60,369 nt of DNA from NCBI GenBank assembly GCA_964510965.1, contig CAZECX010000004.1, positions 1 through 60,369 of the forward strand, in the 5' to 3' direction. The notes under the pieces are model-generated. The model did not search any database, was not told the origin of the DNA, and saw only the letters and a list, made by a program, of their open reading frames with translations. Of the stretch, positions 26,698-43,860 are shown piece by piece. This DNA comes from an uncultured Nitrospina sp. (GTDB taxonomy: Bacteria; Nitrospinota; Nitrospinia; Nitrospinales; VA-1). Every line of letters begins with the position of its first letter. Position 1 is the stretch's first letter. The translations under genes were made by a program, and so were the position numbers.

Positions 26698-27819
26698 ATG
26701 AGTAATCTTATTACGATCGGAAAACGTTCATTAGAAGAAGGCAAGTTATGTGCATTGGCCTTTTATTTATTTTATGGAGTCATACTTTTTCTCGGCCTAT
26801 TGCTTTTTACGGTCCATAACCGTCCCCAAATAAATTTGGAGGGACTTGTAGATTTCTCGCTTCCTGGAATTCATAATCAACTGCTTCCACTGCTTTCTGC
26901 TACATTCCTTGGCTACTTATCAATGCGACTGGCTCGTCAGCTCTCAGTTCCTATTGTTAATTCTTTTATTTTGGGAATGGGCACCCAGATGGTGTACCTA
27001 ACTTTCCCCAATAATCTTTGGTTTTTTTGGAAAACCTATCCGGCTAGTTGGTGGATTTTCTATATGGCTGTATTTTGGACTTTAGCAGTGAATCAAAATT
27101 ATGAAGAGCAAAAGGATTATACTTTATCATGGTTGAGCATTTCAGTGCTTGCTGGAATGTATTGGGTAGATTGGATCGCCACATTTATTCTTATAATGTT
27201 TTATTGCATGGTGTCCATGCGAAGACCGACTGTGGTTTCAATGAAAGAGTATTTCTTGCAATTAGCCAAAGCTCCTCTGGTGCTGGGAGTAGGGGTCCTC
27301 GTAGTAAAATATACGTTGATTTATCTAGGTATAAGCCTGCTCACTGGAATTTCCAGCGAGTTTTTCTTGCAGGCTTACTGTGAAGAGGGTGTAAGAGGGT
27401 TGGTGTTAAGGCCATTTCCACCTCAACTTCCGAGTTGGAGTATTCTAATTGTATTAGGAGTCATCTCGACTATTGCAGTGCTTATTTTTGTGGAACGAAA
27501 AGAAAAACTTTTTTTTCATCAAGTTATTTTAATTTCGGGTGTCGCGGCTTTTCTTTTTTCAAAAAAGCTTACTCATGGGGCTTTCCATGAATATGGAGTC
27601 TATGATACTTTCCTGGCGTTCCCGCTTATTCTAGCATTATTAACTCTTGTTCCGGCCTGGCTTGAAAATTTCAATGGACATTCAGGGATATTTATTCTTG
27701 TTGCTACTCTATTGGCTTTTTGCTCTTCTTTTATTCAATTACGAAATTATGCTGTGCTTTATCCCATTCCAGGTCCAAATTTTTATAGTGCTTGCTTGTC
27801 GGGCCCCTTTTATCATTAG
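26698..27819 (+). CDS. Multi-pass membrane protein, paralog of 28294-29613
   Basis: About 10 hydrophobic segments; shares TVH(N/D)R, HxQxxPxLS, TFPxNL and PLILALxxLxPAWLE with 28294-29613. Confidence 0.75.
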   Translation: MSNLITIGKRSLEEGKLCALAFYLFYGVILFLGLLLFTVHNRPQINLEGLVDFSLPGIHNQLLPLLSATFLGYLSMRLARQLSVPIVNSFILGMGTQMVYLTFPNNLWFFWKTYPASWWIFYMAVFWTLAVNQNYEEQKDYTLSWLSISVLAGMYWVDWIATFILIMFYCMVSMRRPTVVSMKEYFLQLAKAPLVLGVGVLVVKYTLIYLGISLLTGISSEFFLQAYCEEGVRGLVLRPFPPQLPSWSILIVLGVISTIAVLIFVERKEKLFFHQVILISGVAAFLFSKKLTHGAFHEYGVYDTFLAFPLILALLTLVPAWLENFNGHSGIFILVATLLAFCSSFIQLRNYAVLYPIPGPNFYSACLSGPFYH

Positions 27820-27859: not shown

Positions 27860-28249
27860 TTATGGTGAGGGGGGAGGGGTTGAATTTTCTAAGTTTGGTT
27901 CTGGGTTCTGCATAGATTTGGAGCTCTCTTTCCAAATAAGTTTAAGTTCGTAAATTATGGGGCTTATCTTTTCACCAATTTGTCGAATCCGCCGAGCATA
28001 TTGTTGAACTTCTTTTTCCGGTAGCTGTATTAATTTAGCCTCCAAGGCTGGGACTACCCGCGAAGACATCTTAATAACTGTATTGCCTAAAACTACCGTG
28101 CCAATTCCTCCAATTCCTACACAAAGTAGAAGAACAATCATGGTTTTAAAAAAAAATGAAAGAAGCCCTGAAGTGCCATAACCAGGGTTTAAAGCTTCAG
28201 GTTTTAACGGTTTTTCCTTCTGTTTGTTAATTTCTGAATTATTCTCCAT
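27860..28249 (-). CDS. Small single-TM hypothetical protein
   Basis: GGAGG RBS before ATG at 28249 (MENNSE...); one TM helix then an amphipathic helix; co-oriented directly after 28294-29613. Confidence 0.65.
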   Translation of the reverse strand: MENNSEINKQKEKPLKPEALNPGYGTSGLLSFFFKTMIVLLLCVGIGGIGTVVLGNTVIKMSSRVVPALEAKLIQLPEKEVQQYARRIRQIGEKISPIIYELKLIWKESSKSMQNPEPNLENSTPPPSP

Positions 28250-28293
28250 GTTAATACCTCCATAAATTAAATTGAATGAGGCAGGTTTTAATA

Positions 28294-29613
28294 TCAAAAG
28301 TAAGGCGGCATATGGAGCCAGTAAGCAAGCATTTGCCCTCCAGCAAAAGCAAAGGCTGTCAAACCTGAAAAAAGAACAAAGACACCAGAGTTTTGATTTA
28401 AAGTTTCCAACCAAGCGGGCAAAAGTGCGAAAAGAGCCAGAATCAAAGGTAAAGCCAAGAGAGGTTCATAGATGTTAATGTGAATCACTTCATTTTGGCT
28501 AAAAACAAAAGCCATAGGAATAAATGATCCTATACCCAGCAATAAGGTCGTTTGATGGTCCAAATGTTTCTTTGTCCTTTGATTAAAGAAAATTACGGCA
28601 ATGGTTGCTGAAGTACCCAAAAATAAAAGCACCTTCCATTTTGGTAGCCAAGGAACATATTGAGAAAAAAGTAAATCCCAATGGTTGGAATAATATTGGA
28701 TATCTCCATCCAACCCCGTTCGAAAATTAAGGGAAGAGCCGTCCAGAATAATTTGTGGAAAATTTAGTTTTACCCAAAGAATTTGGCCCGTCATGATAAG
28801 TGCTGCCGGCACTGCAGCAAAAACTACCGATTTAAGAAATTTAAAAATATTGAGCTCTCTAGGGGCGATGATTAAAAAAATAAAGCCGTAGGACAACATG
28901 AAAAAAAATGTAATGTAATGATCAATATAAAACATCAAGAAAACAATTAGAATCCAAATTGTTTTACTCTTTCCATCATATCCTTTCCAGTTAAAGTGAT
29001 TGTCAATCAATAAAAAGAGTATTGCAAAAGTTAACCAAACATGAACCTGATAGAAATCGAAGACGGCCGACAGGTTCATGGGGAAAGTTTGGAAAACAGT
29101 GAGTGCACTTAATCCCAAAGCTAAGGAGTGGAAAGAGGATATTTTCATTTGAAGTGACAAGCGCATTGCTAATAATCCGAGAAGAGCAGAGGAGAGCATT
29201 GGAAAAAACTGGCTATGCAAGGCCATAAGGAAATAATTAAATTTGCCGGTGACTTTTACATGAGCTCTTTGAAGAAGATGAGCCAATTGCAAATATCCCA
29301 TTGTTAATGACTTCCAGACTACTTGTCGAGGATCTTCTTCAGCAGATTTCTTGAAAGCCAGGCCGCCATGGACAAAATAGCCATGGTTGATCCAGACTTT
29401 TATGGAATCGTAATTTAGGGGACGCCCTCTTTTTCTAAACTCCTCTTCAGTACGGTCATGTACCGTATTGAAAAGAAGAATAAAAAGGGCGAAGCTGTAT
29501 AGGAAAATTATTACCAATGGCATTCTTACGTTTGCGCAAAGGTTCTGGCGAAGTTTTTCAATTGAAATTGTCATTTTGGGAAAGCTAGAGAAAAAAACAG
29601 AATGGCTAACCAT
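28294..29613 (-). CDS. Multi-pass membrane protein, possible GT-C-type (lipid-linked sugar) transferase
   Basis: TM1, a large acidic/aromatic loop (DRTEEE...NYDS..WINHG), then many TMs and a second loop; lies beside a GtrB-like GT2. The GT-C call is inference. Confidence 0.6.
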   Translation of the reverse strand: MVSHSVFFSSFPKMTISIEKLRQNLCANVRMPLVIIFLYSFALFILLFNTVHDRTEEEFRKRGRPLNYDSIKVWINHGYFVHGGLAFKKSAEEDPRQVVWKSLTMGYLQLAHLLQRAHVKVTGKFNYFLMALHSQFFPMLSSALLGLLAMRLSLQMKISSFHSLALGLSALTVFQTFPMNLSAVFDFYQVHVWLTFAILFLLIDNHFNWKGYDGKSKTIWILIVFLMFYIDHYITFFFMLSYGFIFLIIAPRELNIFKFLKSVVFAAVPAALIMTGQILWVKLNFPQIILDGSSLNFRTGLDGDIQYYSNHWDLLFSQYVPWLPKWKVLLFLGTSATIAVIFFNQRTKKHLDHQTTLLLGIGSFIPMAFVFSQNEVIHINIYEPLLALPLILALFALLPAWLETLNQNSGVFVLFSGLTAFAFAGGQMLAYWLHMPPYF

Positions 29614-29940
29614 ATTCTAAGTTAAAACTGAGCTGAATGTAAAGTTGTGTCAATATGCCAGCCATAAGGTTCAAGTAAGGTTCAAATACTGTTGAAGATC
29701 TGCTGAATCTGGTATAGTACGAGCAGCAAGGGTGATTGCTAGAATAATGTAGTGACAGAGAGTTTCTTTCGCGCTTTCAGGGTGGGATTGATTCACGGAA
29801 AAACTGACAGTTCCCGCCAGGAAGCCAAATCAGCTATTTATCATAATAAATTAAGTTATTTACCACCTTTTCCGCAAAGGATAAGTAACTTATTCGAAAT
29901 TTAGCTACCTACAGAGGGTATTGGTAAAATAATAATCAAT

Positions 29941-30966
29941 ATGGTCAAACTATATAAGATTAGAAAATTTTTAAAGCATTTAAGCTTTATGAGAAGCCCT
30001 GTGTTGGTTAAAAGGATTTTCCAAGGCTACTACAACAGTTTAATCAAGGGAAAAGATACTCTCCGGTCTATTGAACTGGCTATTGACTATAGATGTCAGG
30101 CAACCTGCCACAAATGCTATTCTGCTAATTTGGGTACCCATTTCCCCAATGCGAATTATGTCAATAAGCCCATGATGACGGTAGATGAGATACGTCGTAC
30201 CGTTGACCAAGCGATGGACTTAGGTTTGATTCATGTAAATATTACAGGTGGAGAACCTACGCTTCGAAATGATCTTGCTGAAATTGTAGAAGCTTGCAGG
30301 CCCAGGGAAATTATGGTGTCGCTCGTTACTAATGCTCTTTCTTTATCTAGAGAAAAACTAAAGACATTAAGTGAACTTGGGCTGAACCTTTTGCAAATTA
30401 GCTTGGACTCCGCCGATGCTAAAACTCATGATGAGTTAAGGGGCGTACCTGGGTGCTACGACAAAGTAATGCAAACAGCTGCTTGGGCTAAAGAATTTGG
30501 AATAAATCTTTGCTTTACCACCGTTCTTTCTACCGAAAGCACCAGTAATGGTAGCGAAACTCGTAAATTGCTGGAAATTGCTGAGCGAGAAAATGCCTAT
30601 CTTCTTATTTGTGACTCCGCTTCAGTAGGGGGATGGGAAGATCAAGGAGAAAAGGTGATGACAAGAGAAGAAAGAGACGAAACGCTTTTTGAGCTAATGA
30701 AGCATCCTCTTACCCGGCACCATAATATGTATAATTTTAGAGGTTCAATCGGGTGTCCCGCTTCGCATGAAAAGGTCTATATCACATCCCATGGCGATGT
30801 GACCCCCTGTAATTTAGTTCATGATAGTTTTGGTAATGTTTTGAGTACGCCATTGTTTGATATTCTTGCGGAGATGCGAAAAGACCCTTTATGGTCCCAA
30901 ACCCATGATACTTGCCCGCGATACTTGGAAGAGGAGTTTGCAACTCGTGGTGGAGTTCCCATATGA
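29941..30966 (+). CDS. Radical SAM protein with SPASM/twitch-like C-terminus
   Basis: CQATCHKC, ITGGEP, LVTNA, QISLDS, C-terminal GCPASHEKVYITSHGDVTPC...C. Confidence 0.92.
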   Translation: MVKLYKIRKFLKHLSFMRSPVLVKRIFQGYYNSLIKGKDTLRSIELAIDYRCQATCHKCYSANLGTHFPNANYVNKPMMTVDEIRRTVDQAMDLGLIHVNITGGEPTLRNDLAEIVEACRPREIMVSLVTNALSLSREKLKTLSELGLNLLQISLDSADAKTHDELRGVPGCYDKVMQTAAWAKEFGINLCFTTVLSTESTSNGSETRKLLEIAERENAYLLICDSASVGGWEDQGEKVMTREERDETLFELMKHPLTRHHNMYNFRGSIGCPASHEKVYITSHGDVTPCNLVHDSFGNVLSTPLFDILAEMRKDPLWSQTHDTCPRYLEEEFATRGGVPI

Positions 30967-31709
30967 ATCAAGACGAATTCGAGGCGATGGATGCTGGCGG
31001 TCCTGGCCAGTGGTGGTACAATGCTAGAGAGAAGTTGTTAGTAAGGGAATTAAAAAAGCTCTCTTTAGATAAACCGAACCTGAGAATTCTTGACTTAGCA
31101 TCTGCATGTGGTGGTAATTTTTCTACGTGCTATAAACACGGAAAAGTTTTTGGTTTAGATATATCTTGGAAATCAATTGAAATCTGCAAAACAAAGGGCA
31201 TCCAAAATCTAGTTCAGGCAGATGCCCAAGAGCTTCCTTTTGTGAATGGATCTATGGATGTGGTTATTGCTCTGGATGTGCTGGAACATTTAGAAAATGA
31301 TTCTGGATCGATGCGTGAGGTTGCCAGAGTTTTAAATAAGGACGGAGTTTTTATATTCAATACGCCTGCCATGATGCAGCTTTTTTCCTATCATGATTTA
31401 GCATTCCACCACTTCAGAAGATACTCTGCTGTTGAATTAAAGAATAAATTAATTAATGCCAATTTGCAGGTAAGCTGGATTACTTATTGGTCTTTCTTTA
31501 TGTTTCCTGTGGTTTATTCTTTTAGGAAGCTAAAAAATTTTTTTAGCAATTCAGAGGACCAGCCATCAAGCGATTTTCAAATGAAGATTCCTGAATTCAT
31601 TGATAATATCTTTCGATTTTTTAGCCAAATAGAGATCTATCTTCTTAAGCGAAAAATGTATCTTCCAATTGGAGTTTCTCTTTTTGGTACGGCACGAAAA
31701 GTTAACTAG
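30963..31709 (+). CDS. Class I SAM-dependent methyltransferase
   Basis: RILDLASACGG motif I, GLDIS, QADAQELPF, ALDVLEHLEND; ATGA overlap with the upstream gene. Confidence 0.88.
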   Translation: MNQDEFEAMDAGGPGQWWYNAREKLLVRELKKLSLDKPNLRILDLASACGGNFSTCYKHGKVFGLDISWKSIEICKTKGIQNLVQADAQELPFVNGSMDVVIALDVLEHLENDSGSMREVARVLNKDGVFIFNTPAMMQLFSYHDLAFHHFRRYSAVELKNKLINANLQVSWITYWSFFMFPVVYSFRKLKNFFSNSEDQPSSDFQMKIPEFIDNIFRFFSQIEIYLLKRKMYLPIGVSLFGTARKVN

Positions 31710-31715
31710 TTTGTT

Positions 31716-32675
31716 ATGAAGCAATTCTCTGTGATCCTTCCTCTAATGAATGAGGAGGAGGTATTTGAAGAATTATACTCGAGAGTGAAGGAAACCATGG
31801 ACTCTTTGGGTGCTTCTTATGAAATTATTTTTGTGGATGATGGAAGTGACGATTCCACGGGCAAGTTGATTCTGGAATATAGTAAGAAAGACCACAGTAT
31901 TATAGGGGTACTGCTTTCAAGAAACTTTGGCCAGGATAATGCAATTTTGGCAGGCTTAAAGGTCGCTGAAGGACAAGATATCATATTGATGGACGGAGAT
32001 CTTCAGGACCCGCCAGAAGTAATTCTAGATCTTATTCGTGAAAAGCAAAAGGACTATGATGTAGTTTATGGAATAAAGACAGATAGGAAAGAAGGGGTAA
32101 TGATTAAAGGAATGACCTCTATGTTTTATCAGTTTATGTTTTTTTTGTCAGGAATTCGAATGCCAAGAAATGTTGGAACATTTTCGATTTTTTCCCGACA
32201 GGTTGGAAATGCAATAATACAATTTCCGGAGTCAAATAAATTTTTCAGTGGGCTCAGATTCTTTGTGGGTTTTAAGCAAGTAGGAGTTTTTTATGAAAGG
32301 GAAAGGAGAGTTCAAGGGAAATCAAAATCCTTTATTTCCTTGGCCAGGATGGCGATGAATGCAATTTTTTCGTATACCATTTTCCCGATGAGACTGGCCA
32401 TACTTTTTGCTTCAATTCTAACAATTTTAACAGGGTTTGTTTTACTGCTTTATATTTTTCAAGCCATAATAGGCTCCCAAACATTTATTGATTTATCATT
32501 GTTTTTTGAGCCTTTTACAATTTTGGTTTTAGGCATGATATTAATGATTTTGATTGTGATTGCAGAGGTTGTGGGTCGCATTGATGCTCAGGTGAAAAAG
32601 AGACCTGAATATATTGTCAAATCAATAATTCGAAATGGGGCAGTTGATATTGGAGCTCCATTTGTCTTGCATTAA
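31716..32675 (+). CDS. GT2 glycosyltransferase, GtrB/ArnC-like polyprenol-phosphate sugar transferase
   Basis: VILPLMNEEE, FVDDGSDD, LSRNFGQ, MDGDLQDPPE, two C-terminal TMs, KRPEYIV. Confidence 0.92.
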   Translation: MKQFSVILPLMNEEEVFEELYSRVKETMDSLGASYEIIFVDDGSDDSTGKLILEYSKKDHSIIGVLLSRNFGQDNAILAGLKVAEGQDIILMDGDLQDPPEVILDLIREKQKDYDVVYGIKTDRKEGVMIKGMTSMFYQFMFFLSGIRMPRNVGTFSIFSRQVGNAIIQFPESNKFFSGLRFFVGFKQVGVFYERERRVQGKSKSFISLARMAMNAIFSYTIFPMRLAILFASILTILTGFVLLLYIFQAIIGSQTFIDLSLFFEPFTILVLGMILMILIVIAEVVGRIDAQVKKRPEYIVKSIIRNGAVDIGAPFVLH

Positions 32676-32720
32676 ATGCAAACTGATTTTTAAAAAGCAA
32701 ACCATTTTATAGGCAGTCCT

Positions 32721-34325
32721 ATGAGAATTACATTTGTAATGATGGGTTGGGAAAACCTTTCCGTCCAATATATATCCTCATATTTGAAAGAACGTGGGCA
32801 TGAAGTACGGCTTGCTTATGATCAATCTCTGTTTGAGGATAAAAATTATTTATCAATGCCGTTTTTGGCTCGCATTTTTGATCAGGGAGACAATATTGTC
32901 AAACAGGTTATTGACACAGAACCGGATTTGGTATGTTTTTCTGTTATGTCTGTTACCCACCAATGGTCACTTAAGACAGCCGAGGAAATTAAGAAATACA
33001 TGAATGTCCCCATATTGTTTGGTGGCATCCACGCTATAATCTGCCCGGAAGAAATTATTGCAAAAGACCAAGTGGATATGGTTTGTCTGGGTGAAGGTGA
33101 ATATGCTCTGGCCGATTTATTGGATAGCATGGAGAAGGGGGCGATAGATAAATCATTAGATGGGTTTTATTTTAAAAAAGCAAATGGTGAAGTTATCAGG
33201 AACAAAAAGCGTGGCCTTATTGCTGACATGGACACTATGCCTTTTCCTGATAAAGAGCTTTTTGCTCCATTTATTCCGATTAAAAATTACTACCTGGCAG
33301 TGACTAATAGAGGCTGCCCTTTTTCATGTTCCTATTGTTCTGTTTCTGCGCAAGATGCTGTTGAGAAAGATTTGGAAAACTTTAAAAAAGTGAGAGAGCG
33401 CAGTGTAGATAATGTTTTGGAAGAACTTAGAATCAATAAGGCTAAATACGGCTATAAATGGATTGATTTTAGAAACCCAGTTTTTTCTCCTTCAAAAGAT
33501 TGGATATTAGAATTTTGTGAGAAATATAAGGAACAAATAAATGTTCCCTTTCGTATTTTCAGCCATCCTTTGCTTATAAGGGAAGACACCTCTATAGCTT
33601 TGAAAGAAGCAGGATGTTTTGCTATTCAAATGGGCCTTGAATCTTATGATCCTGATGTCAGAAATAAATTCTTGCATAGGATAGAGACAAATGAGCAAAT
33701 TAACAAGGCTATAGGAATAATGGAGAAAGTTGGAGTTACTTATTCCATGGATTATATCCTCAATCTTCCAGGTCAAGAAGAGCCGGAACTCATAGAAGTT
33801 GGTAAACTTTTTTCAGGGTTGAAATATCTTTACAGGGTTTCTCCATTTTTGTTGACATATCTCCCTAAATTAAAAATTAACGAATACGCAATGCAAGAAG
33901 GGGCGTTGGATCCCAAAGAAGAAAAAAATATCAACCAAGGGCTCCAGGGAAGCTATATGGATATTGGCTCCGATATGGAAAAGAATAGAAGAAAGCTAAT
34001 GCAAACGTATAAGCTATTTTTTAGATTAATGAGCTTTATGCCCAGGTGGATGAAGCAGTTAACTTTTAAAACAAAGATTTATCATATGTTTTATTATTTG
34101 CCCTTTGATTTTATTCTGAGGCTTTTTGATTTAAGCATGGTATTTCGTGATTATGATGCTAATGCTTATGCGCGTAATTATTGGTGGTGGTTTTCAAAAA
34201 GGTTCAACTCTAAGCATCCGAGCTACTTTTTCAATAACCTAAAGGCATTTAGAGGGCCCAATGATCCCCCCAAAAATAGGAATTCTATCAAGCTAAGTCT
34301 TGCCGAAGATCGTTCCCTTCTGTAA
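32721..34325 (+). CDS. Cobalamin-binding radical SAM protein
   Basis: N-terminal B12-binding domain (QYISSYLKERGHEV; LFGGIHA..CPE; GEGE), RGCPFSCSYC, QMGLES. Confidence 0.92.
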   Translation: MRITFVMMGWENLSVQYISSYLKERGHEVRLAYDQSLFEDKNYLSMPFLARIFDQGDNIVKQVIDTEPDLVCFSVMSVTHQWSLKTAEEIKKYMNVPILFGGIHAIICPEEIIAKDQVDMVCLGEGEYALADLLDSMEKGAIDKSLDGFYFKKANGEVIRNKKRGLIADMDTMPFPDKELFAPFIPIKNYYLAVTNRGCPFSCSYCSVSAQDAVEKDLENFKKVRERSVDNVLEELRINKAKYGYKWIDFRNPVFSPSKDWILEFCEKYKEQINVPFRIFSHPLLIREDTSIALKEAGCFAIQMGLESYDPDVRNKFLHRIETNEQINKAIGIMEKVGVTYSMDYILNLPGQEEPELIEVGKLFSGLKYLYRVSPFLLTYLPKLKINEYAMQEGALDPKEEKNINQGLQGSYMDIGSDMEKNRRKLMQTYKLFFRLMSFMPRWMKQLTFKTKIYHMFYYLPFDFILRLFDLSMVFRDYDANAYARNYWWWFSKRFNSKHPSYFFNNLKAFRGPNDPPKNRNSIKLSLAEDRSLL

Positions 34326-34466
34326 CTGAGGAAAGGAAAGTTTGGCAGTTAGACTGCACGTTTACCGCCTTAGGTTTTTATAAGGATATAACCCTATTCA
34401 ATAGGGTTTATGACTGATCAAATCAACGGTTTTTTCAAGCTCTGCTTTTATAGGAGTAATTAAGGC

Positions 34467-35528
34467 ATGTCTTCCGTTTTTAAGACCCTGTATAACGGGC
34501 GAAAATCCCTGGCAAAACTTATAAAGGCCAAAGTTACGGGGCAACGAATCCCAGTAAGGGTTTGTTTACTTGTAACTAAGTATTGCAATTTAACCTGTTT
34601 CTTTTGTTATGCAGAAGACATTCTGAATTCAAAAGCCGTTCAGGAATATTCTTTAGACAATATCAAGAATATTGTTGACCAGTTGTATGAAGCTGGATGC
34701 CGCCAGATTACTATTGTTGGAGGCGAACCCCTTATTCGGGATGATATTGGAGATATCATAGATTACATCCATAACAAAGGAATGTTTGTTGAGATGACCA
34801 CGAACGGCTATTTTGTAAAAAAAAGAATCAAAGCCCTTAAAAAAGTGGACCACTTATGCATTAGCCTAGATGGCAATAAAGAATCGAATGATGCAAGTCG
34901 CGGTGAAGGTTCATTTGAAAAAATTATAGAAGGAATCATTTGTGCATCAGAGAATGGAATAGCCGTTAGAGTGCACGCTACGCTTTCAAAGATAACTAAC
35001 AATGAAGAATCTCTTAAATTCTTATTGGAATTTTGTAAAAGAATGGATGTCAAGCTGAATATCTCAGAGATCAGTCTGCCAGGCATCGAACAAAAAGATT
35101 CTAAGTACCTTCTTTCAAAGGAGGAAAGCAGAAATTTTTATGAAGTTTATAGAGGATTTAAAAAGTCTGGATACCCTATAGCCAGCTCGTACATGGCCAT
35201 GGATTATGTCGAAAAATGGCCTTTGGGTGATGAGACTACCCTGTATAAAAAGGACCTTGATAAAGTTTCCAAGGATAGTTACTTTCCATGCACGTTTGGC
35301 AGAACTCAGGCCTTTGTCAGTGCTGATGGAAATGTGTATTCCTGCACTAAAAAGTGGGGAGACGGTAAGAACATGCTTGAAGTCGGATTCGACAAAGCTT
35401 GGGAATATTTTGAGGATTTGGATTGTGTGGCCTGTAAAGAGTTGGGTTGCATTGAGCAAAGTGCTATTACCAATCTTGCATTCCGGACCTTATTTAATAC
35501 GTTGAAGAATTTTGCTATGATGAAATAG
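34467..35528 (+). CDS. Radical SAM protein with twitch-like C-terminus
   Basis: CNLTCFFC, VGGEPL, MTTNG, CISLDG, C-terminal PCTFG...DGNVYSC...CVAC. Confidence 0.92.
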   Translation: MSSVFKTLYNGRKSLAKLIKAKVTGQRIPVRVCLLVTKYCNLTCFFCYAEDILNSKAVQEYSLDNIKNIVDQLYEAGCRQITIVGGEPLIRDDIGDIIDYIHNKGMFVEMTTNGYFVKKRIKALKKVDHLCISLDGNKESNDASRGEGSFEKIIEGIICASENGIAVRVHATLSKITNNEESLKFLLEFCKRMDVKLNISEISLPGIEQKDSKYLLSKEESRNFYEVYRGFKKSGYPIASSYMAMDYVEKWPLGDETTLYKKDLDKVSKDSYFPCTFGRTQAFVSADGNVYSCTKKWGDGKNMLEVGFDKAWEYFEDLDCVACKELGCIEQSAITNLAFRTLFNTLKNFAMMK

Positions 35529-35638
35529 CAAAAAAATATTGTATTTCCTGCCATTGCCTGAAGTTTTCTCACGCATGGAAACCTCACTATAGTCCCTAAT
35601 CTGTATGAACTTTTTCACATTAACTTAAAGAATGCTGA

Positions 35639-36451
35639 ATGAATTCCTTACAATCATGTCTTAAGGGAAAGTCAATTTTGATTACAGGGGCTTCAGAAGG
35701 CATTGGTCTTGCGATAACTGAAACACTTAGTAGTTTTGGAATGAAAATGGGATTGTTGGCTCGTTCCGAAGAAAAACTTATAAAAATAGCCGCTCGGGTA
35801 AATTCGGTTGGAAGTGAGGCTTTTATTCTAAAGGCAGACTTGAGCGATCGCAAAGAAGTGGAAGATGCTGCACGAAAATTCGAAGAGGTACACGGTGTCC
35901 CCGATTTTTTAATAAATAATGCGGGTATCGGTCTCAGGGGATTTTGGAAGGATATAGATTTGGATGCAGAGCTAAAAGTTTTATCCGTTAATTTTACTGC
36001 CCCATTAATTCTAATTCGCTACTTTCTACCAGCAATGTTGCAAAGAAACAGCGGTCATATAATAAACATCAATGCCTTTGGAGGGATGTTCTCGAACCCC
36101 TATCAAGGCGCCTACGGCGCAAGTAAATCAGCTCTCCTTTTTTACGCCTCAAGCCTTGCGTATGAACTTGAAAATACAAATGTGCAAATCTCCTCGATTA
36201 TTCCTGGCGCTATAAATACAGATTTTCTCAACCAGGCAAACTACGAAGTATTCAAAAACCGTTCCGATATTGTATCCCCAAAAGTGGTAGCAGAAAAAGT
36301 GTTGGAGACAATCAAAAAACCTAGAGAAATAGCTTACGTGGGGCCAGCATGGAAAAAAATCGCAATAAAAGTCATTAACTTGTATCCCGAATTCTTTCGA
36401 AAAATTGTAGAAAAGGGGAATATTCCTCCCTCGTCAACTTCAAAAAACTAA
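35639..36451 (+). CDS. Short-chain dehydrogenase/reductase
   Basis: ITGASEGIG, LINNAGIG, YGASK catalytic YxxxK, IPGAINT. Confidence 0.93.
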   Translation: MNSLQSCLKGKSILITGASEGIGLAITETLSSFGMKMGLLARSEEKLIKIAARVNSVGSEAFILKADLSDRKEVEDAARKFEEVHGVPDFLINNAGIGLRGFWKDIDLDAELKVLSVNFTAPLILIRYFLPAMLQRNSGHIININAFGGMFSNPYQGAYGASKSALLFYASSLAYELENTNVQISSIIPGAINTDFLNQANYEVFKNRSDIVSPKVVAEKVLETIKKPREIAYVGPAWKKIAIKVINLYPEFFRKIVEKGNIPPSSTSKN

Positions 36452-36551: not shown

Positions 36552-38120
36552 TTAATGCCGGCAAAACCCTCTAAATTGCTTGGGAACATAGCACATGCTA
36601 ATAGCATTTTTGCTAAAAATTTTTTTGATCTCTTCCTCTTTTTTACCTCCTTGGGGTACTAGTCCGAGATTGCAACCGGCTTCTAATAGTACTTGTGGCC
36701 CGTCGATGAAAGGAAAAAACGCATCCGCGGCAAAAACAGAAGACTCCATTGAATGGCCTTGTTCCTGAGCCCGGCACACAGCATTCCGGATAGCGATGAT
36801 CGTTGATGGTCCTCCCCCCAAGCCAACCAATTGTCTACCCTTTACAAGAGCCACCTCGTTACCACCTAAATTAGAACTCCAAACCGTCGCCCATGCCAGA
36901 ATCAGAGATTCGATTTGTTCTTTAGAAGGATCTTCTCCTACCCAATAAGAACTTTTCAAATCCAAAATATAATTTGCTGGAGGCTGGCGGATCATTCCAC
37001 CGCGAACCCACCGTAAACCCCAAGGTTGGTTTGGCAGCATTGGATCGACCAAAGTCTTATTTCTAAAAATTTTCCTGTTTTTCCGTTGTGAAAGAGTTTC
37101 GACTGCATACGGAGAAAAGGAAGGTGCCACTACTACATCCAGCATCCAATTCCTTGTGCCAAGCATTTCTTGTCTAACAGAGCTGTCAATAAGCAAATTA
37201 ACTAGGTCATCGGTTATGGGAAAGTTACAAATGAACTCCCCTCCCCAAACTGCCTGAGGATTTCCAAATAGAGCATTTTCCAAGGCAACTGCAGGGTCTT
37301 TCCAGTCGATGGCAAAACCACAAGGGTTGCCATGCTTGGAGGCGATAGCCAGAAAAGGGGATTGCCTAAATTCCTTTTTAAATGCCTCATGAGCCAGGCA
37401 CAACGTCTGGAGAATGCTATCTAAATCGGCCAAATTGGTAAAACAGGGTGCCTCCTTTCCCAACAATTCAAACTTGTGAAGGGATAGCGGATCGTTGTCA
37501 CCAAAATCCGAAAAAAGATGACAGGGGCTCTGATAAGGGTTTTCCCCACTTGATAGTTCTAGGTTTTTAATGCTAACGATACCTTCACCAAAAGAATCTT
37601 GCTGCTGTAAAAGTTTTACGTAATGAGCGGCAATATGAACAAGGGTTTTGTTTGTAAATTCCGCCTTCAGGGAATCAGAGACTTTTCCATTCACTTTAAA
37701 TTCCCCGATGCATCGTTCCATATCGGTATAGGACATAATGGGAATCCTATTACCCTTTACCGCAAGAGCCAAAAGCGTATGTCCACCTACATCATTGCCC
37801 TGGTCAAGCGAATATGGGATATCGAAAAGCAAATCAATTCTCTTGTCAGTCTGTTCTAAGGTCAGTGCTGATTCAATCTTGGGGTGCAGAGTTGGTGGAA
37901 ACCCGTAATCTTCAGATATGCCAACAAACGATTCAATGTCAATGCAGGGAATTTGAATTTCTTTTAACAATGGGGTGGTTTCTTTTGTAGATATGATCTC
38001 CCAACCCAATTGATGTAAACTCCGTGCAAATTCCTTAACCTGGGTGGTGTTGGATAAAGAAAATAATGCTCTCAATAAATCCCTCCGGTCATCCCTCAAA
38101 TGTCCCTTCTGATAGACCAT
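36552..38120 (-). CDS. Divergent PurH-like protein (degenerate MGS/IMPCH domain + AICAR-transformylase-like domain)
   Basis: RALFSLS, TLHPKI, SGENPYQ, KHGNPCG, DVVVAPSF, AADAFFPFIDG retained; canonical STGGT and GRVKTLHP replaced by STKET and GFPPTLHP. Confidence 0.82.
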   Translation of the reverse strand: MVYQKGHLRDDRRDLLRALFSLSNTTQVKEFARSLHQLGWEIISTKETTPLLKEIQIPCIDIESFVGISEDYGFPPTLHPKIESALTLEQTDKRIDLLFDIPYSLDQGNDVGGHTLLALAVKGNRIPIMSYTDMERCIGEFKVNGKVSDSLKAEFTNKTLVHIAAHYVKLLQQQDSFGEGIVSIKNLELSSGENPYQSPCHLFSDFGDNDPLSLHKFELLGKEAPCFTNLADLDSILQTLCLAHEAFKKEFRQSPFLAIASKHGNPCGFAIDWKDPAVALENALFGNPQAVWGGEFICNFPITDDLVNLLIDSSVRQEMLGTRNWMLDVVVAPSFSPYAVETLSQRKNRKIFRNKTLVDPMLPNQPWGLRWVRGGMIRQPPANYILDLKSSYWVGEDPSKEQIESLILAWATVWSSNLGGNEVALVKGRQLVGLGGGPSTIIAIRNAVCRAQEQGHSMESSVFAADAFFPFIDGPQVLLEAGCNLGLVPQGGKKEEEIKKIFSKNAISMCYVPKQFRGFCRH

Positions 38121-39406
38121 TCCGTTCCATGGTCTCCGTTAATGGAGGCGATTTCGACTTCCGAGGATGGCCCAGAGTCATCACTGAACGACTCCATCTT
38201 TTTTATGACCGTGTAGATCTCATACAGCCCTCGGTAAAAAGGCAGGGCCTTGTCAAAATTACTCATTATAACTTCATCGTTTAAGCCTATACCTCTGGGG
38301 CAATCCTGATGAGTTTTTATGCATTTGTACTTGTACGTTCCTTGGTCGTCTTGCATTACATTGTATTGAACCGCAAAGGAAGTATTGGGGCAACACACGC
38401 CGGCGGTTTGTCGATCAGGGGATAGAAAAGCCAGTTGCCCGCCGTGGTAAAGGACATAAAAATATGGATAAGCGACATGAAATGAAGTATAGCAAGGAAT
38501 TCCCGATGCTTTAATCAACTCGTCAACGGAATACCATTGATCAATTTGGACGGGAAAATCAAAATCCCCCATGGTGCGCTTCAATTTGACTTGGGTGCTA
38601 TATTTATCGCAAAGTTTATCATTGATATGCTTGGCATCAGTAGGCTTGTCTAAAATAGAAAAAGTGACTTGTGTTCTGTAGTCTGGACACCCAGCGACAA
38701 AATTATTATTTTCAATATCCAGGTAAGGGTAAATGGAGGTAAATGCTGCTGGGCAGAGTTCATCTCTCTTGTCCAGGTTAAAATAAAAATCATGGTCTCG
38801 AGTGATTCCAATAAGGCAACCCTTGCCTTCATCCACGGCCTTAATATGAATATCCTTGTCAGGAATTTCAACAGGCATTATAAAATTTAGGATCCATCTA
38901 AGAATATTCTTAAAGTATACCCAGGGGTTGAATTTTCTTTTTGAGGAGTAAATCCTGAAGCTCACTCCATCGGACCCTAGAGGGCAGGAAATTATTTCCC
39001 CGGCAGGATTCATTTTCAGTTTTGACTTATTCTGATTGCAATGCAGGGCCAACAGTGTCGGATAAAGATTCAAAAAAGCTGCGGGGCACATGCCTTGGCT
39101 GAGAAGGCTGACTTGCTTGTTATCTGAATTCAATGGATGGTAACGGCACCTGTTGTCGGTAGCATCGTATACAAGTTTCAGTCCCTTCTCCTTTTCTTCG
39201 GCCATCCTTGCACATAAGGGGTGACTTGAAACTTCTTTGTTGGTTATTGTCGACATATTACTGAAGAAATGCTCATAAAAGAGTAGTAAGCAATTTTTTA
39301 AATTATCACAAATATTTGTTATCAATTCAAGGACAACAGGTTTTTGATCCAAATCCCGACATAGCAACTGGATGCTGCAGGTCAGCGTTTTATATTCATA
39401 GGGCAC
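38096..39406 (-). CDS. Cys-rich protein with three tandem TIGR04076-like domains
   Basis: Repeats MCPAAFLNLYP...SCPLGSDGVSF, LCPAAFTSIYP...GCPDYRTQVTF and PCYTSFHVAYP...CCPNTSFAVQY. Family assigned from memory of the motif. Confidence 0.68.
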   Translation of the reverse strand: MPYEYKTLTCSIQLLCRDLDQKPVVLELITNICDNLKNCLLLFYEHFFSNMSTITNKEVSSHPLCARMAEEKEKGLKLVYDATDNRCRYHPLNSDNKQVSLLSQGMCPAAFLNLYPTLLALHCNQNKSKLKMNPAGEIISCPLGSDGVSFRIYSSKRKFNPWVYFKNILRWILNFIMPVEIPDKDIHIKAVDEGKGCLIGITRDHDFYFNLDKRDELCPAAFTSIYPYLDIENNNFVAGCPDYRTQVTFSILDKPTDAKHINDKLCDKYSTQVKLKRTMGDFDFPVQIDQWYSVDELIKASGIPCYTSFHVAYPYFYVLYHGGQLAFLSPDRQTAGVCCPNTSFAVQYNVMQDDQGTYKYKCIKTHQDCPRGIGLNDEVIMSNFDKALPFYRGLYEIYTVIKKMESFSDDSGPSSEVEIASINGDHGTEWSIRRDI

Positions 39407-39451: not shown

Positions 39452-40807
39452 CTATTTTAAAAAAAAATATATTTTTTTCGCGATTCCATATGCTGGATGC
39501 TCGTAATTATATGGTAATAACCTTTTCGCAAAATTTTTAGAAGTTGTTAAGAACATTTCGTAAAACCGTTCTTTGCCAATTCTTTTATTATATATCTTAA
39601 AGTACTCCTCAAGTTCTTCAATGGATTCTGCTCTTCCATTATCAGCATACTTTGTAACATAATAATCAAAATCTCCTTCGTAAAGGGATCTCATGTTGTG
39701 CAAAGTAGTTTTCATAAAGTTTCCAATTAACAAGTCATCAAAAATTTCATAATTTACTGCTTTCATCAAACTATTTCGGGGAGCTTCGAATGTAATCCCT
39801 TTATTTTTTTCTCCCTTTAGTTTGATAAAATTATCCTTATTTCCCACTCGGAAATTTATGAATGAAATAAACTGATTGACTTTTTCTTTTCTAGAAAAAT
39901 AGTCACTAATCCTGTTTAAGTCCTTTTGATTTAATTCTTCGGTCCAATCGTCGCCAAAAGTTTTAGAGTCCAATTGCTCTATCAAATTTTTTTCGACCTC
40001 AATCTGATGGATTTCACCATTCGAACAATTTACAATTGCGAATGGCGGAATATATTCTAAATCTTCATGGAATTTAATAGAATAGGCATCTATTGGGGTT
40101 GTGTATTTGTTTGTCCAAATGGAATCGTTTCTTTGGTATATATGGAAGGAACTAAAGGGAATTACACTATTTAAACCGAGAGATTTAGCATATAAAGACA
40201 AATCATTTCCAACATGGGTATTTTTTAATGCAATAGGTTCAATGAAATCTCCATTTTCATCATAAAAATTGATCATATCTGCGTCACCATATCCTGATAG
40301 CGTCAGCAAAAATTTTTTCCGATAATTCTTGGATATTTTCTTGATAATTCCAGTGCAACCTTTATCCCCAGCATCATTAAGATTTACAAATAAGTACCCA
40401 TTTATATCAACTAAAAGAATTGCGTTTTGAGTTACTGTGGTGATGCAAAACACCTTTATCTTTCCTGAAAGGTTTACCCACTTTCTGTCAGGAAGTATTC
40501 CTACATCAAAACCTTTTTGTTCAAGCCCGTCTTTTATTCTACTCCCTACGTGGTCCGGCAAAAGAATTTTATTGCTTTTGAAGCGTTCAATGCTGGAAGG
40601 ATTTAAATGATCTGGGTGTCCATGAGAAAACCAGATAAATTCTGCATTATGGATATCATTCTTTATTGGAGTAGGTATTTTATGAGACAGGTTCCAACTC
40701 CCAAAATACGCATCATCTTCCTCTCCAAACCAAGGATCTGTTGCCAAGATGCATTTCTTTTCATAAGCTACCAAAGTTGCATTTCCTATTGTTTTAAGGT
40801 GTGGCAT
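39452..40807 (-). CDS. MBL-fold metallo-hydrolase/oxygenase (UlaG / CMP-Neu5Ac-hydroxylase-like core)
   Basis: LATDPWF...YFGSWNLSH, FSHGHPDH metal motif, NLNDAG, IPFSSFH. Confidence 0.78.
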   Translation of the reverse strand: MPHLKTIGNATLVAYEKKCILATDPWFGEEDDAYFGSWNLSHKIPTPIKNDIHNAEFIWFSHGHPDHLNPSSIERFKSNKILLPDHVGSRIKDGLEQKGFDVGILPDRKWVNLSGKIKVFCITTVTQNAILLVDINGYLFVNLNDAGDKGCTGIIKKISKNYRKKFLLTLSGYGDADMINFYDENGDFIEPIALKNTHVGNDLSLYAKSLGLNSVIPFSSFHIYQRNDSIWTNKYTTPIDAYSIKFHEDLEYIPPFAIVNCSNGEIHQIEVEKNLIEQLDSKTFGDDWTEELNQKDLNRISDYFSRKEKVNQFISFINFRVGNKDNFIKLKGEKNKGITFEAPRNSLMKAVNYEIFDDLLIGNFMKTTLHNMRSLYEGDFDYYVTKYADNGRAESIEELEEYFKIYNKRIGKERFYEMFLTTSKNFAKRLLPYNYEHPAYGIAKKIYFFLK

Positions 40808-41174: not shown

Positions 41175-41402
41175 TTAAGCAGGAGGGCTAGTTTCGCCGT
41201 ATTCGTTGAGTTTGTTACGTAGGGTGCGGATGCTGATTCCTAACGAGTCGGCAGCTTTTGTTTTGTTGCCGTTGACCTCTTCGAGGGTCTGCATGATGAG
41301 TTCCTTTTCCATTTCATAGATAGTTCCCGACAATCGCGGAGCCCCTTTTTCCTTGGAGTGCAATTCTTCATCGAAGAACAAATGCGATGGCAATATCGTA
41401 TC
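41175..41402 (-). repeat. Second copy of the 228-bp direct repeat (intact gene end)
   Basis: ~94% identical to 26258-26485, same orientation. Confidence 0.95.
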
Positions 41403-43812: not shown

Positions 43813-43860
43813 AGGAAGGATAGCAGTGGGTTTCCAATCTATTTCTATTATAAATTAAAA

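What the first reader, a model, noticed from the sequence alone, without database searches (positions are those of the whole stretch)
36552..38120. PurH paralog that keeps the transformylase Lys-His dyad but has lost cyclohydrolase motifs
Seen: KHGNPCG, GENPxQ and DAFFPF are retained, whereas STGGT becomes STKET, GRVKTLHP becomes GFPPTLHP (Lys lost), the IDIGG region is shortened to NDVGG, and GAGQxSR becomes GGGPST. Known: K-H is the AICAR transformylase catalytic pair and the lost residues line the IMP cyclohydrolase site. Inference: a repurposed formyl-THF-dependent N-formyltransferase for a non-purine substrate, a role normally filled by PurN/Fmt-fold enzymes in sugar pathways.
Basis: partly seen in the sequence, partly recalled or inferred. 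Interest (0 to 1): 0.7.

Follow-up and report, generated by a model that had tools for sequence, protein, structure and literature searches.

The report
PurH-like enzyme in glycan clusters
This gene is a diverged copy of the purine-synthesis enzyme PurH that keeps its folate and formyl-transfer residues but has lost those that hold the purine precursor; it moves between distant microbes inside radical-SAM-rich surface-sugar gene clusters, so it probably performs an unknown one-carbon transfer outside purine synthesis.

Summary

It belongs to a distinct clade, "group A". More than 100 relatives share 46-84% identity; identity to canonical PurH is about 26%. It scores far below the NCBIfam PurH cut-offs (167 vs 402 bits).

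Across 43 members:
- The transformylase and folate-site set (K266, H267, N431, D546, F541, G316, D339, human numbering) is essentially invariant.
- AICAR contacts R207, Y208 and R451 are lost, as are the cyclohydrolase nucleotide-phosphate ligands and K66.

The clade is scattered across at least 12 phyla, with up to three divergent copies in one MAG. It is never found next to pur genes. It usually sits in glycan clusters beside radical-SAM and B12-radical-SAM enzymes, SDRs and a Cys-rich TIGR04076-repeat protein that overlaps its start codon.

A non-purine, folate-dependent one-carbon transferase is the best reading. I could not test whether the same genome also has a canonical purH.

The parts
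36552..38120 (-). Group-A PurH-like protein (522 aa from ATG 38120; 515 aa from TTG 38099). It has an N-terminal MGS-like/IMPCH-like domain (about residues 17-175) and a C-terminal AICARFT-like domain (about 183-522).
   Evidence: ORF. Pfam PF01808 101 bits; MGS below cut-off. NCBIfam PurH equivalogs 167 and 126 bits vs cut-offs 402 and 528. AlphaFold pLDDT 92.1. Foldseek 4a1o E 1e-36, TM 0.77. Residue mapping.
38096..39256 (-). TIGR04076-family repeat protein (386 aa; the ORF can be extended to GTG 39406). It is Cys-rich, with 10 invariant Cys plus two invariant His, and its stop codon overlaps the PurH-like start.
   Evidence: NCBIfam TIGR04076 47.5 bits. 27 homologues with invariant Cys and His. 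Immediately upstream of the PurH-like gene, or split into C6+C3 ORFs, in 28 of 49 loci. Overlap 38096-38120, with TTGA at 38099-38096. AlphaFold pLDDT 81.7, no PDB fold match.
35639..36451 (+). Short-chain dehydrogenase/reductase (270 aa), convergent with the PurH-like gene. Recurrent partner (cluster C4).
   Evidence: Pfam adh_short 154 bits. Present in 18 of 49 loci.
34467..35528 (+). Radical SAM enzyme (353 aa, MoaA/SPASM-like). Recurrent partner (cluster C1).
   Evidence: Pfam Radical_SAM and Fer4_12. Best NCBIfam hits are far below cut-offs. In 30 of 49 loci, often in several copies.
32721..34325 (+). B12-binding radical SAM enzyme (534 aa). Recurrent partner (cluster C2).
   Evidence: Pfam B12-binding and Radical_SAM. 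In 20 of 49 loci.
31716..32675 (+). Family-2 glycosyltransferase (319 aa).
   Evidence: Pfam Glycos_transf_2. Cluster C7.
30912..31709 (+). SAM-dependent methyltransferase (265 aa).
   Evidence: Pfam Methyltransf_11. Cluster C9.
29941..30966 (+). Second radical SAM/SPASM enzyme (341 aa).
   Evidence: Pfam Radical_SAM and SPASM. NCBIfam hits below cut-offs.
28294..29613 (-). Unannotated polytopic membrane protein (439 aa, about 7 hydrophobic segments). Possibly a glycan polymerase, ligase or flippase type; this is an inference.
   Evidence: No Pfam or NCBIfam hit. Hydropathy scan.
26698..27819 (+). Unannotated polytopic membrane protein (373 aa, about 7 hydrophobic segments). Likely the left edge of the glycan block.
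   Evidence: No Pfam or NCBIfam hit. Hydropathy scan.
39452..40807 (-). Unannotated soluble 451-aa protein at the head of the minus-strand operon, with a sub-threshold metallo-beta-lactamase-fold match. Not conserved in other loci.
   Evidence: Pfam Lactamase_B_2 16 bits, below cut-off. No homologue in other fetched loci.

Best explanation
The gene encodes a genuine two-domain PurH-fold protein. It belongs to a separate, horizontally spread clade (group A) that is not the purine-pathway enzyme.

Shown:
- The clade keeps the 10-formyl-tetrahydrofolate pocket and the formyl-transfer catalytic set. In window numbering these are K262/H263, N421, D473, F468, G293 and D328; in human numbering K266/H267, N431, D546, F541, G316 and D339.
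- It has replaced three AICAR contacts: R207 and Y208 are now variable, and R451 is an invariant Thr.
- In the N-terminal domain the nucleotide-phosphate ligands and K66 are replaced, while Y104, D125 and K137 are kept.
- It is embedded in glycan clusters, usually overlapping a Cys-rich TIGR04076-repeat gene and next to radical-SAM and B12-radical-SAM enzymes and SDRs.

Inferred: it is a folate-dependent one-carbon (most simply formyl) transferase. Its acceptor is not AICAR but an intermediate of a heavily tailored, often heptose-type, sugar or sugar nucleotide made by the neighbouring enzymes. The loss of two or three Arg residues, together with two new invariant Glu residues next to active-site positions (E295, E422), fits a neutral or cationic acceptor rather than a 5'-phosphate-anchored one. 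The N-terminal domain no longer binds IMP or FAICAR in the canonical way. Because it remains constrained, it may bind the new substrate or carry out a follow-up step.
For: - Fold and homology.
- Distinct clade: mean identity is 46% within group A and 26% to canonical PurH, and group A is monophyletic in an NJ tree. In an exhaustive profile search the signature switches sharply below about 500 bits.
- Residue mapping on 43 members, against contacts taken from the literature: PMC6193938 and PMC3261824. The folate and transition-state residues are invariant except R451.
- Context: radical SAM in 30, TIGR04076 proteins in 28, B12-radical SAM in 20 and SDR in 18 of 49 loci; 19 of 25 well-flanked loci have at least one radical-SAM or TIGR04076 partner.
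- Pfam-annotated glycan genes (GT2, GT4, GT9, Wzy, GmhA/HddA/HddC/GmhB-like).
- No PurC, PurD, PurM or PurN homologue in any group-A locus, whereas canonical purH sits beside purD or purN.
- Distribution: at least 12 phyla including archaeal MAGs, a within-clade tree that does not follow taxonomy, and three copies at 52-71% identity in one Nitrospinaceae MAG.
- The start codon overlaps the partner's stop codon.
Against: - There is no biochemical evidence of any kind.
- R451, which contacts the transition-state mimic in human ATIC, is lost, so formyl-transfer chemistry may be altered or abolished.
- The acceptor is unknown, and amine-installing enzymes are rare in the neighbourhood.
- Three of 11 Pfam-annotated contexts lack glycan genes: a minimal radical-SAM/partner/PurH-like trio, an aldolase locus, and a nucleoside ABC transporter/amidohydrolase locus.
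- The presence of a canonical purH in the same genomes was not tested.
- All hosts are MAGs or SAGs, so binning errors could inflate the apparent copy number and taxonomic spread.
- Residue roles rest on homology to human and avian ATIC, not on a liganded structure of this protein.
Confidence: 0.5

Rival explanations
1. One reading: an N10-formyl-THF-dependent N-formyltransferase acting on NDP-amino-sugars, taking the role normally filled by PurN/Fmt-fold enzymes such as WlaRD, FdtF or ArnA.
For: The folate site and the K-H dyad are conserved. The context is glycan biosynthesis. No PurN/Fmt-fold homologue is found in any group-A locus, so if the glycan is formylated this is the only candidate. 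The new invariant Glu residues could deprotonate an aliphatic amine (inference).
Against: A DegT/DnrJ/EryC1 aminotransferase lies within 12 kb in only 3 of 49 loci. The conserved partners are radical-SAM, B12-radical-SAM, SDR and TIGR04076 proteins, which are not the usual 4-keto/3-keto plus aminotransferase logic. No N-formyl sugar is known from these uncultured hosts.
Confidence: 0.15
2. A folate-dependent enzyme with different one-carbon chemistry. One option is that it runs in reverse, removing a formyl group from an intermediate onto THF. Another is that it handles a different oxidation state, for example in support of the B12-radical-SAM steps.
For: By my own recollection of the ATIC kinetics literature, the AICAR transformylase reaction is readily reversible and thermodynamically favours AICAR plus 10-formyl-THF. 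The replacement of R451 and the tight association with B12-radical-SAM enzymes leave room for altered chemistry.
Against: The K-H dyad, N431 and D546 are the formyl-transfer set and are invariant. No known B12-radical-SAM enzyme needs a folate-dependent partner (my knowledge). This is purely inferential.
Confidence: 0.12
3. It acts on a nucleoside- or nucleotide-like small molecule (a non-AICAR ribosyl or heterocyclic amine) rather than on a glycan precursor. In that case the glycan clusters are only its commonest home.
For: R588 and the C-terminal R-H, which are part of the canonical nucleotide-binding end, are retained. One member sits with a Bmp-type nucleoside ABC transporter, an amidohydrolase and an MtnA-like isomerase. 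Another forms a minimal trio with a radical SAM enzyme and the partner, without glycan genes. The radical SAM partners are most similar to MoaA, a nucleotide-modifying enzyme, although well below cut-offs.
Against: Eight of 11 annotated contexts are glycan clusters (and the window itself). The phosphate ligands R207 and Y208, and those of the N-domain, are gone.
Confidence: 0.1
4. A non-catalytic pseudoenzyme: a folate- or ligand-binding scaffold or regulator for the TIGR04076/radical-SAM machinery.
For: Several canonical substrate contacts are lost. It is tightly coupled to a partner protein.
Against: Catalytic K-H, N431 and D546, and also Y104, D125 and K137, are invariant across sequences averaging only about 46% identity to one another (33% at the lowest). 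That is hard to explain without catalysis.
Confidence: 0.08
5. It is simply the lineage's own, unusually divergent, housekeeping PurH.
For: It has the full-length PurH fold with the K-H dyad. IMG annotates relatives as PurH. No canonical purH is visible in the 60-kb window.
Against: It has lost K66, R207, Y208 and R451, which are reported as fully conserved even in archaeal PurH. It scores below the equivalog cut-offs. Its distribution is patchy and cross-domain, with up to three copies per MAG. It has no pur neighbours in 49 loci. It was not detected in the GTDB representative with 98%-identical ClpX. NCBI's pipeline names it 'hypothetical protein'.
Confidence: 0.03

Closest known systems
Canonical bifunctional PurH/ATIC (AICAR transformylase/IMP cyclohydrolase; TIGR00355, NF002049; e.g. 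M. tuberculosis 4a1o, C. jejuni 4ehi, human 1p4r)
   Same: Same two-domain fold over the full length (TM 0.77). Same catalytic K-H dyad. Same folate and transition-state residues N431, D546, F541, G316 and D339. Same C-terminal Arg (R588). Cyclohydrolase residues Y104, D125 and K137 are present.
   Different: About 26% identity, and far below the equivalog cut-offs. AICAR contacts R207, Y208 and R451 are lost, as are cyclohydrolase K66, R64, the SGGT loop and K14. Two loops are deleted. There are new invariant residues (C226, W292, E295, W325, E422, GGGPST, RGFCRH). It is never next to pur genes, it lives in glycan/radical-SAM clusters, and it is multi-copy and horizontally spread.
Patescibacteria PurH-like 'group B' (L050-L085; 530-600 aa)
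   Same: These are the nearest relatives by profile score (240-430 bits vs 126-179 bits for the solved canonical PurH structures, scored in a separate PDB search). They share AKHGN[PA]CG and the RGFxxH C-terminus.
   Different: Group B keeps SGGT, R64, Y208 and G.GQQDR (R451). Only K66 is replaced, by V or L. One locus sits beside purC and purM, so group B looks like a real, if odd, purine enzyme.
ForH (formycin cluster; PDB 6nko), a stand-alone IMP-cyclohydrolase-domain paralogue
   Same: It is a precedent for a PurH-derived paralogue recruited into a non-primary pathway. There is a weak match to the N-terminal domain (profile E 1.5e-4; Foldseek TMt 0.7).
   Different: ForH has only the N-terminal domain (about 200 aa) and acts on a purine-like C-nucleotide. 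It has no transformylase domain and is not in a glycan context.
PurN/Fmt-fold sugar N-formyltransferases (WlaRD, FdtF, VioF, ArnA N-domain)
   Same: A possible functional analogy: N10-formyl-THF-dependent formylation within glycan biosynthesis clusters.
   Different: The fold is unrelated (no Formyl_trans_N match). Their NDP-amino-sugar substrates are made by an adjacent DegT aminotransferase, which is almost always absent here.
PurV, the stand-alone AICARFT domain (NF005492/PRK07106)
   Same: The AICARFT domain is homologous.
   Different: Only 19 bits vs a cut-off of 415. PurV lacks the N-terminal domain and works in purine synthesis.

Membership tests
Bifunctional PurH (AICARFT/IMPCH) | Two-domain architecture: an N-terminal MGS-like domain plus a C-terminal AICARFT domain (two deaminase-like subdomains) | tested here: met
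   AlphaFold pLDDT 92.1. Foldseek full-length matches to 4a1o, 3zzm, 4ehi and 1zcz, TM 0.74-0.77. The profile aligns end to end.
Bifunctional PurH (AICARFT/IMPCH) | Score above the curated equivalog cut-offs (NF002049 402 bits; TIGR00355 528 bits) | tested here: not met
   166.7 and 125.6 bits. Pfam PF01808 is met (101 vs 25), but MGS PF02142 is below cut-off (21.9 vs 24.1).
Bifunctional PurH (AICARFT/IMPCH) | Transformylase catalytic dyad K266/H267 | tested here: met
   K262/H263 are invariant in 43 of 43 group-A sequences.
Bifunctional PurH (AICARFT/IMPCH) | AICAR-contacting residues R207, Y208, N431, R451, F541, R588 and D339 (PMC3261824, given there in avian numbering) | tested here: not met
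   R207 and Y208 are variable non-basic residues, and R451 is an invariant Thr. N431, F541, R588 and D339 are kept.
Bifunctional PurH (AICARFT/IMPCH) | Folate-site residues K266, N431, R451, I452, D546, N547, D339, F541 and G316 (PMC6193938) | tested here: met
   Eight of nine are conserved or conservative; only R451 is lost. N547 is Ala or Gly, as it is in E. coli.
Bifunctional PurH (AICARFT/IMPCH) | IMP cyclohydrolase residues K66, Y104, D125 and K137 | tested here: not met
   K66 is Pro in 38 of 43 sequences. Y104, D125 and K137 are invariant.
Bifunctional PurH (AICARFT/IMPCH) | Nucleotide 5'-phosphate ligands of the cyclohydrolase site (SGGT loop, K14, R64). Their role is from my recollection of the ATIC-XMP structures. 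| tested here: not met
   G35-G36 become [R/K/x]-E, R64 is an invariant Pro, and K14 is Thr or variable.
Bifunctional PurH (AICARFT/IMPCH) | Genomic association with other pur genes (supportive, not defining) | tested here: not met
   tblastn with E. coli PurC, PurD, PurM and PurN gave no hit in 49 group-A loci. Canonical purH sits beside purD or purN.
Bifunctional PurH (AICARFT/IMPCH) | AICAR transformylase/IMP cyclohydrolase activity; complementation of purH; being the genome's sole PurH | not testable with these tools
   No tool gives whole-MAG gene content or enzyme assays.
PurN/Fmt-fold sugar N-formyltransferases | Formyl_trans_N (PF00551) fold | tested here: not met
   No such Pfam hit. 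The fold is PurH.
PurN/Fmt-fold sugar N-formyltransferases | An NDP-amino-sugar acceptor supplied by a clustered DegT-type aminotransferase | tested here: not met
   DegT-like genes are present in 3 of 49 loci.
PurN/Fmt-fold sugar N-formyltransferases | Use of N10-formyl-THF as formyl donor | not testable with these tools
   This is only inferred from the conservation of PurH folate-site residues.
ForH-type stand-alone IMPCH paralogues | A single IMPCH domain of about 200 aa in a C-nucleoside cluster | tested here: not met
   The protein has two domains and 522 aa. The match to 6nko is weak and covers the N-domain only.

The most novel reading that the evidence does not exclude
Both halves of the enzyme are active on a new, non-nucleotide substrate. 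The C-terminal domain formylates an amine on a radical-SAM-tailored sugar using 10-formyl-THF. The N-terminal domain still has the cyclohydrolase Y/D/K set but an opened, phosphate-free pocket, and it closes a ring by cyclodehydration. That would copy the FAICAR-to-IMP logic to build a heterocycle on a surface glycan. The obligately coupled TIGR04076-repeat protein, which has a fold not represented in the PDB, would act as a metal or Fe-S partner.
Probability: 0.12. Interest if true: 0.85.

Novelty: new variant of a known kind. Interest (0 to 1): 0.6.

Why it matters
- To my knowledge, no enzyme with the AICAR-transformylase fold is known to work outside purine or purine-like nucleotide synthesis. 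A clade that keeps the folate chemistry but changes the acceptor would add a second fold, besides PurN/Fmt, to the formyl- and one-carbon-transfer toolkit of glycan or natural-product tailoring.
- There is a practical annotation problem. IMG labels these proteins as PurH, which can produce false 'complete purine pathway' calls in MAGs of Omnitrophota, Nitrospinota, Patescibacteria and DPANN-type archaea. NCBI labels them 'hypothetical'.
- The finding points to a recurrent, uncharacterised module: the PurH-like protein, a TIGR04076 Cys-rich repeat protein, several radical-SAM and B12-radical-SAM enzymes, and an SDR. This module probably makes an unusual sugar modification in uncultured subsurface and aquatic bacteria.
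- The partner protein family has no known function or solved fold.

Tried and rejected
- A single-protein scan of GTDB genomes found nothing. An alignment-based scan was needed.
- I looked for a second, canonical purH in all fetched loci and found none. That is uninformative, because each locus covers only about 20 kb.
- I found no way to list the rest of any MAG, so the test for a canonical purH elsewhere in the genome could not be run. Literature searches on purine synthesis in Omnitrophota and Nitrospina were uninformative.
- Plasmid collection: only canonical purH at 28% identity or less, and no group-A member.
- Literature on PurH-like paralogues and on TIGR04076: nothing relevant. The M. 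tuberculosis PurH-AICAR paper is not held.
- Rosetta-stone fusion of partner and PurH-like protein: rejected. The long ORFs in L034, L036, L039 and L048 are upstream-start artefacts in high-GC MAGs and contain no TIGR04076 similarity.
- Flagellin-glycosylation island: the window's block lies between flagellar genes, and flagellin is also near the gene in L034 and L039. That is only 3 of 49 loci, so it is not a general explanation.
- RiPP-type peptide maturation by the SPASM radical-SAM enzymes acting on the Cys-rich proteins: considered unlikely. The TIGR04076 proteins are 170-390 aa, confidently folded (pTM 0.87), and the clusters carry glycosyltransferases and nucleotide-sugar genes.
- Foldseek search of the partner model: no meaningful hit.
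Full report
**1. The observation**

The window has an uninterrupted ORF at 36552..38120 on the minus strand (522 aa). Gene callers start it at a TTG seven codons in (515 aa). That TTG forms a TTGA overlap with the stop codon of the upstream gene.

The protein matches Pfam AICARFT_IMPCHas well above threshold (101 bits). It matches the MGS-like domain just below threshold. Against NCBI's PurH equivalog models it reaches only 167 and 126 bits, where the cut-offs are 402 and 528. The best solved relatives are bacterial PurH proteins at about 22-26% identity. An AlphaFold model built on 44 homologues is confident (pLDDT 92.1, pTM 0.86) and superposes over its full length on M. tuberculosis, C. jejuni and T. 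maritima PurH (TM 0.74-0.77, E about 1e-36). So this is a genuine two-domain PurH-fold protein that is very divergent in sequence.

**2. It belongs to a distinct clade**

A protein search returned more than 100 full-length relatives at 46-84% identity, about 505-515 aa long. NCBI names them 'hypothetical protein' and IMG names them PurH.

An alignment-based scan of one genome per GTDB species found 49 loci of this type, which I call group A. They come from Nitrospinota (closest, 84%), Omnitrophota, Delta-, Alpha-, Beta- and Gammaproteobacteria-labelled MAGs, Magnetococcales, SAR324, Planctomycetota, Lentisphaerota, Elusimicrobiota, Thermodesulfovibrionia, Patescibacteria and two archaeal MAGs. 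One Nitrospinaceae MAG carries three copies that are only 52-71% identical to each other.

A second set, group B, is confined to Patescibacteria. It is about 29% identical and keeps most canonical motifs.

In a neighbour-joining tree with eight canonical PurH sequences, group A is monophyletic and separate from canonical PurH plus group B. Its internal branching does not follow taxonomy. Mean identities are 46% within A, 26% between A and canonical, and 32% between A and B.

An exhaustive profile search of 1.8 billion representatives shows a sharp switch. The FPPTLHP/GGGPST signature is found above about 500 bits (roughly 30 clusters at 50% identity). Below about 430 bits the proteins carry HRVVTL/G.GQQDR, the group-B type.

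ClpX in the window is 98% identical to that of a Nitrospinota MAG. The source is a subsurface metagenome.

**3. What is conserved and what is lost**

I mapped residues through an alignment with E. coli PurH (taken from NC_000913) and human ATIC. I wrote the human sequence from memory and checked it: it has the right length, and all 21 positions I looked up, among them the nine residue numbers published in PMC6193938, hold the expected amino acid.

The literature gives three sets of contacts:
- **Folate and transition-state contacts:** K266, N431, R451, I452, D546, N547, D339, F541 and G316 (PMC6193938).
- **AICAR contacts:** R207, Y208, K266, H267, N431, R451, F541, R588 and D339 (PMC3261824).
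- **Cyclohydrolase residues:** K66, Y104, D125 and K137 (PMC3261824).

PMC3261824 reports these as fully conserved even in archaea, apart from a conservative Asp-to-Glu change at D339 (avian D340).

In 43 group-A sequences:
- K266, H267, N431, D546, F541, F542, G316, D339 and R588 are essentially invariant (42 or 43 of 43).
- R207 and Y208 are replaced by variable residues, and R451 by an invariant Thr.
- In the N-terminal domain, G35-G36 become [R/K/x]-Glu, R64 becomes an invariant Pro, K66 becomes Pro, K14 is lost and R133 becomes Ala.
- Y104, D125 and K137 stay invariant.
- Two loops are deleted, about 12 and about 25 residues long.
- New invariant residues appear next to active-site positions: C226, Y196, W292, E295, W325 and E422.

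The N-terminal domain is somewhat less conserved than the C-terminal one (14% vs 24% of positions are at least 90% conserved) but is clearly constrained.

GAGQxSR belongs to the transformylase acceptor site, not the cyclohydrolase site. And the cyclohydrolase catalytic trio is retained; what is lost in both sites is mainly what anchors a ribonucleotide 5'-phosphate.

**4. Genomic context**

In the window the gene is the last of a minus-strand operon: a 451-aa unknown, then the TIGR04076-repeat protein, then the PurH-like gene. This operon converges on a plus-strand operon encoding a radical SAM/SPASM enzyme, a methyltransferase, a GT2, a B12-radical SAM enzyme, a radical SAM enzyme and an SDR. 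Two unannotated polytopic membrane proteins lie at the left edge. GC content dips to 0.36-0.38 across 28-36 kb.

I clustered the neighbours in the 49 group-A loci:

| Neighbour | Loci (of 49) |
|---|---|
| Radical SAM, about 350 aa, often 2-5 copies | 30 |
| TIGR04076-type proteins immediately upstream (one ~380-aa protein, or split ~170 + ~205 aa) | 28 |
| B12-radical SAM | 20 |
| SDR | 18 |
| NAD-dependent epimerase | 16 |

Fe-ADH, GT9, a phosphodiesterase-methyltransferase fusion, methyltransferases, GT2, and GHMP-kinase plus nucleotidyltransferase genes also recur. Nineteen of the 25 loci with at least 4 kb on both sides have at least one radical-SAM or TIGR04076 partner.

Pfam-annotated contigs show classical glycan genes: GT2, GT4, GT9, Wzy_C, PMT_2/YfhO, GmhA/HddA/HddC/GmhB-like heptose-nucleotide genes and RmlC-like genes.

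Three of the 11 annotated contexts differ:
- a minimal radical-SAM/partner/PurH-like trio;
- an aldolase locus;
- a locus with a Bmp-type nucleoside ABC transporter and an amidohydrolase.

All three members carry the group-A signature.

No PurC, PurD, PurM or PurN homologue occurs in any group-A locus, whereas one group-B locus has purC and purM next door. Canonical purH in E. coli, B. thuringiensis and Ilyobacter abuts purD or purN.

**5. Interpretation**

Several lines of evidence argue strongly that this is not the housekeeping enzyme: universally conserved AICAR and IMP contacts are lost, the distribution is patchy and cross-domain, one MAG carries several divergent copies, there are no pur neighbours, and the gene sits consistently in accessory glycan clusters.

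The invariant K-H dyad, N431 and the pterin-binding D546, F541 and G316 argue that folate-dependent one-carbon transfer, most simply formyl transfer, is retained. The acceptor pocket has lost two or three arginines and gained two glutamates. That fits an acceptor not anchored by a 5'-phosphate; this is an inference.

However, DegT-type aminotransferases accompany the gene in only 3 of 49 loci, so I rate that specific version low. The acceptor is more likely a product of the radical-SAM and SDR chemistry on a heptose-type sugar. The mechanistic role of the coupled TIGR04076 protein is unknown.

Retention of Y104, D125 and K137 leaves open a two-step reaction (formylation, then cyclodehydration) on a new substrate. 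That is the most novel reading my evidence does not exclude.

Alternatives that remain open are reverse (deformylating) or other one-carbon chemistry, a nucleoside-like substrate, and a pseudoenzyme.

**6. Limits**

- Nothing here is biochemical.
- Residue roles come from homology.
- All hosts are MAGs or SAGs.
- As indirect evidence, the GTDB representative with 98%-identical ClpX did not appear among the group-A hits. That fits an accessory gene, but it could equally reflect an incomplete MAG.

**7. Novelty**

I found no paper describing a PurH paralogue in glycan or radical-SAM clusters. The nearest precedent is ForH, a stand-alone cyclohydrolase-domain paralogue in formycin biosynthesis. 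I classify the finding as a new variant of a known kind: a PurH-fold subfamily with a remodelled acceptor site and a new, still undefined, role.

Noticed in passing
window 38096-39256 (-); also clusters C3/C6/C8 in L001-L049: The TIGR04076-family repeat protein coupled to the PurH-like gene has 10 invariant Cys and 2 invariant His across 27 homologues and a confident AlphaFold model (pTM 0.87). It has no significant Foldseek match in the PDB (best TM about 0.1). It occurs either as one ~380-aa protein or as two adjacent ORFs of ~170 and ~205 aa. Function and fold are both uncharacterised.
   Followed up: partly
L050-L085 (Patescibacteria MAGs): A second PurH-like group, about 530-600 aa and confined to Patescibacteria, keeps nearly all canonical motifs but replaces the cyclohydrolase Lys66 with Val or Leu (HRVVTLHP/HRVVTLSR). 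One locus (L064) sits next to purC and purM. By profile score it is the nearest relative of group A.
   Followed up: partly
window 11115-15949, 51032-51877, 57717-59546; L034 and L039 near 19.9-20.6 kb: The window's glycan block lies between flagellar genes (fliF, fliG, fliH and fliI on one side, flagellin and fliD on the other). Flagellin genes also lie about 8-9 kb from the PurH-like gene in the Zoogloea and Rhodocyclaceae MAG loci. Flagellin glycosylation is therefore a possible target in some hosts, but this applies to only 3 of 49 loci.
   Followed up: partly
JGI contig carrying P0097 (no DNA held): One group-A member with the full signature sits beside a Bmp-family nucleoside ABC transporter, an amidohydrolase, an MtnA-like (IF-2B family) isomerase and a CN-hydrolase. 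There are no radical-SAM or glycan genes. This context hints at a nucleoside-type substrate.
   Followed up: no
window 28000-36000: GC content falls to 0.36-0.38 across the plus-strand tailoring operon, compared with 0.41-0.46 in the flanking housekeeping and regulatory genes. This fits a horizontally acquired or variable glycan island.
   Followed up: no
window 26698-27819 (+), 28294-29613 (-), 39452-40807 (-): Three sizeable ORFs in the cluster have no family assignment. Two are polytopic membrane proteins with about 7 hydrophobic segments each. The third is a soluble 451-aa protein with only a sub-threshold metallo-beta-lactamase-fold match. None has a homologue in the other fetched loci.
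   Followed up: partly
L007, L008, L009 (Nitrospinaceae MAG JAPYPM01): One MAG carries three separate copies of the whole module (methyltransferase, TIGR04076 protein, PurH-like, radical SAM, SDR) on three contigs of similar coverage. The PurH-like copies are 52-71% identical to each other.
   Followed up: partly
database annotation of P0008, P0009, P0015 and others: IMG/JGI annotates group-A proteins as 'phosphoribosylaminoimidazolecarboxamide formyltransferase / IMP cyclohydrolase', while NCBI calls them hypothetical. The IMG label could make purine pathways look complete in MAGs where they are not.
   Followed up: no
PDB 9ou7 chain DA: A full-length PurH chain is part of a deposited Methanosarcina acetivorans 50S-subunit dimer structure. 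This is an unexpected place for a purine enzyme and is unrelated to this finding.
   Followed up: no
window 19973-26095 and 41175-49921: The glycan block is flanked by an unusually dense set of signalling genes: hybrid histidine kinases, a CHASE3 sensor, two GGDEF proteins, an HDOD protein and two sigma-54 activators.
   Followed up: no
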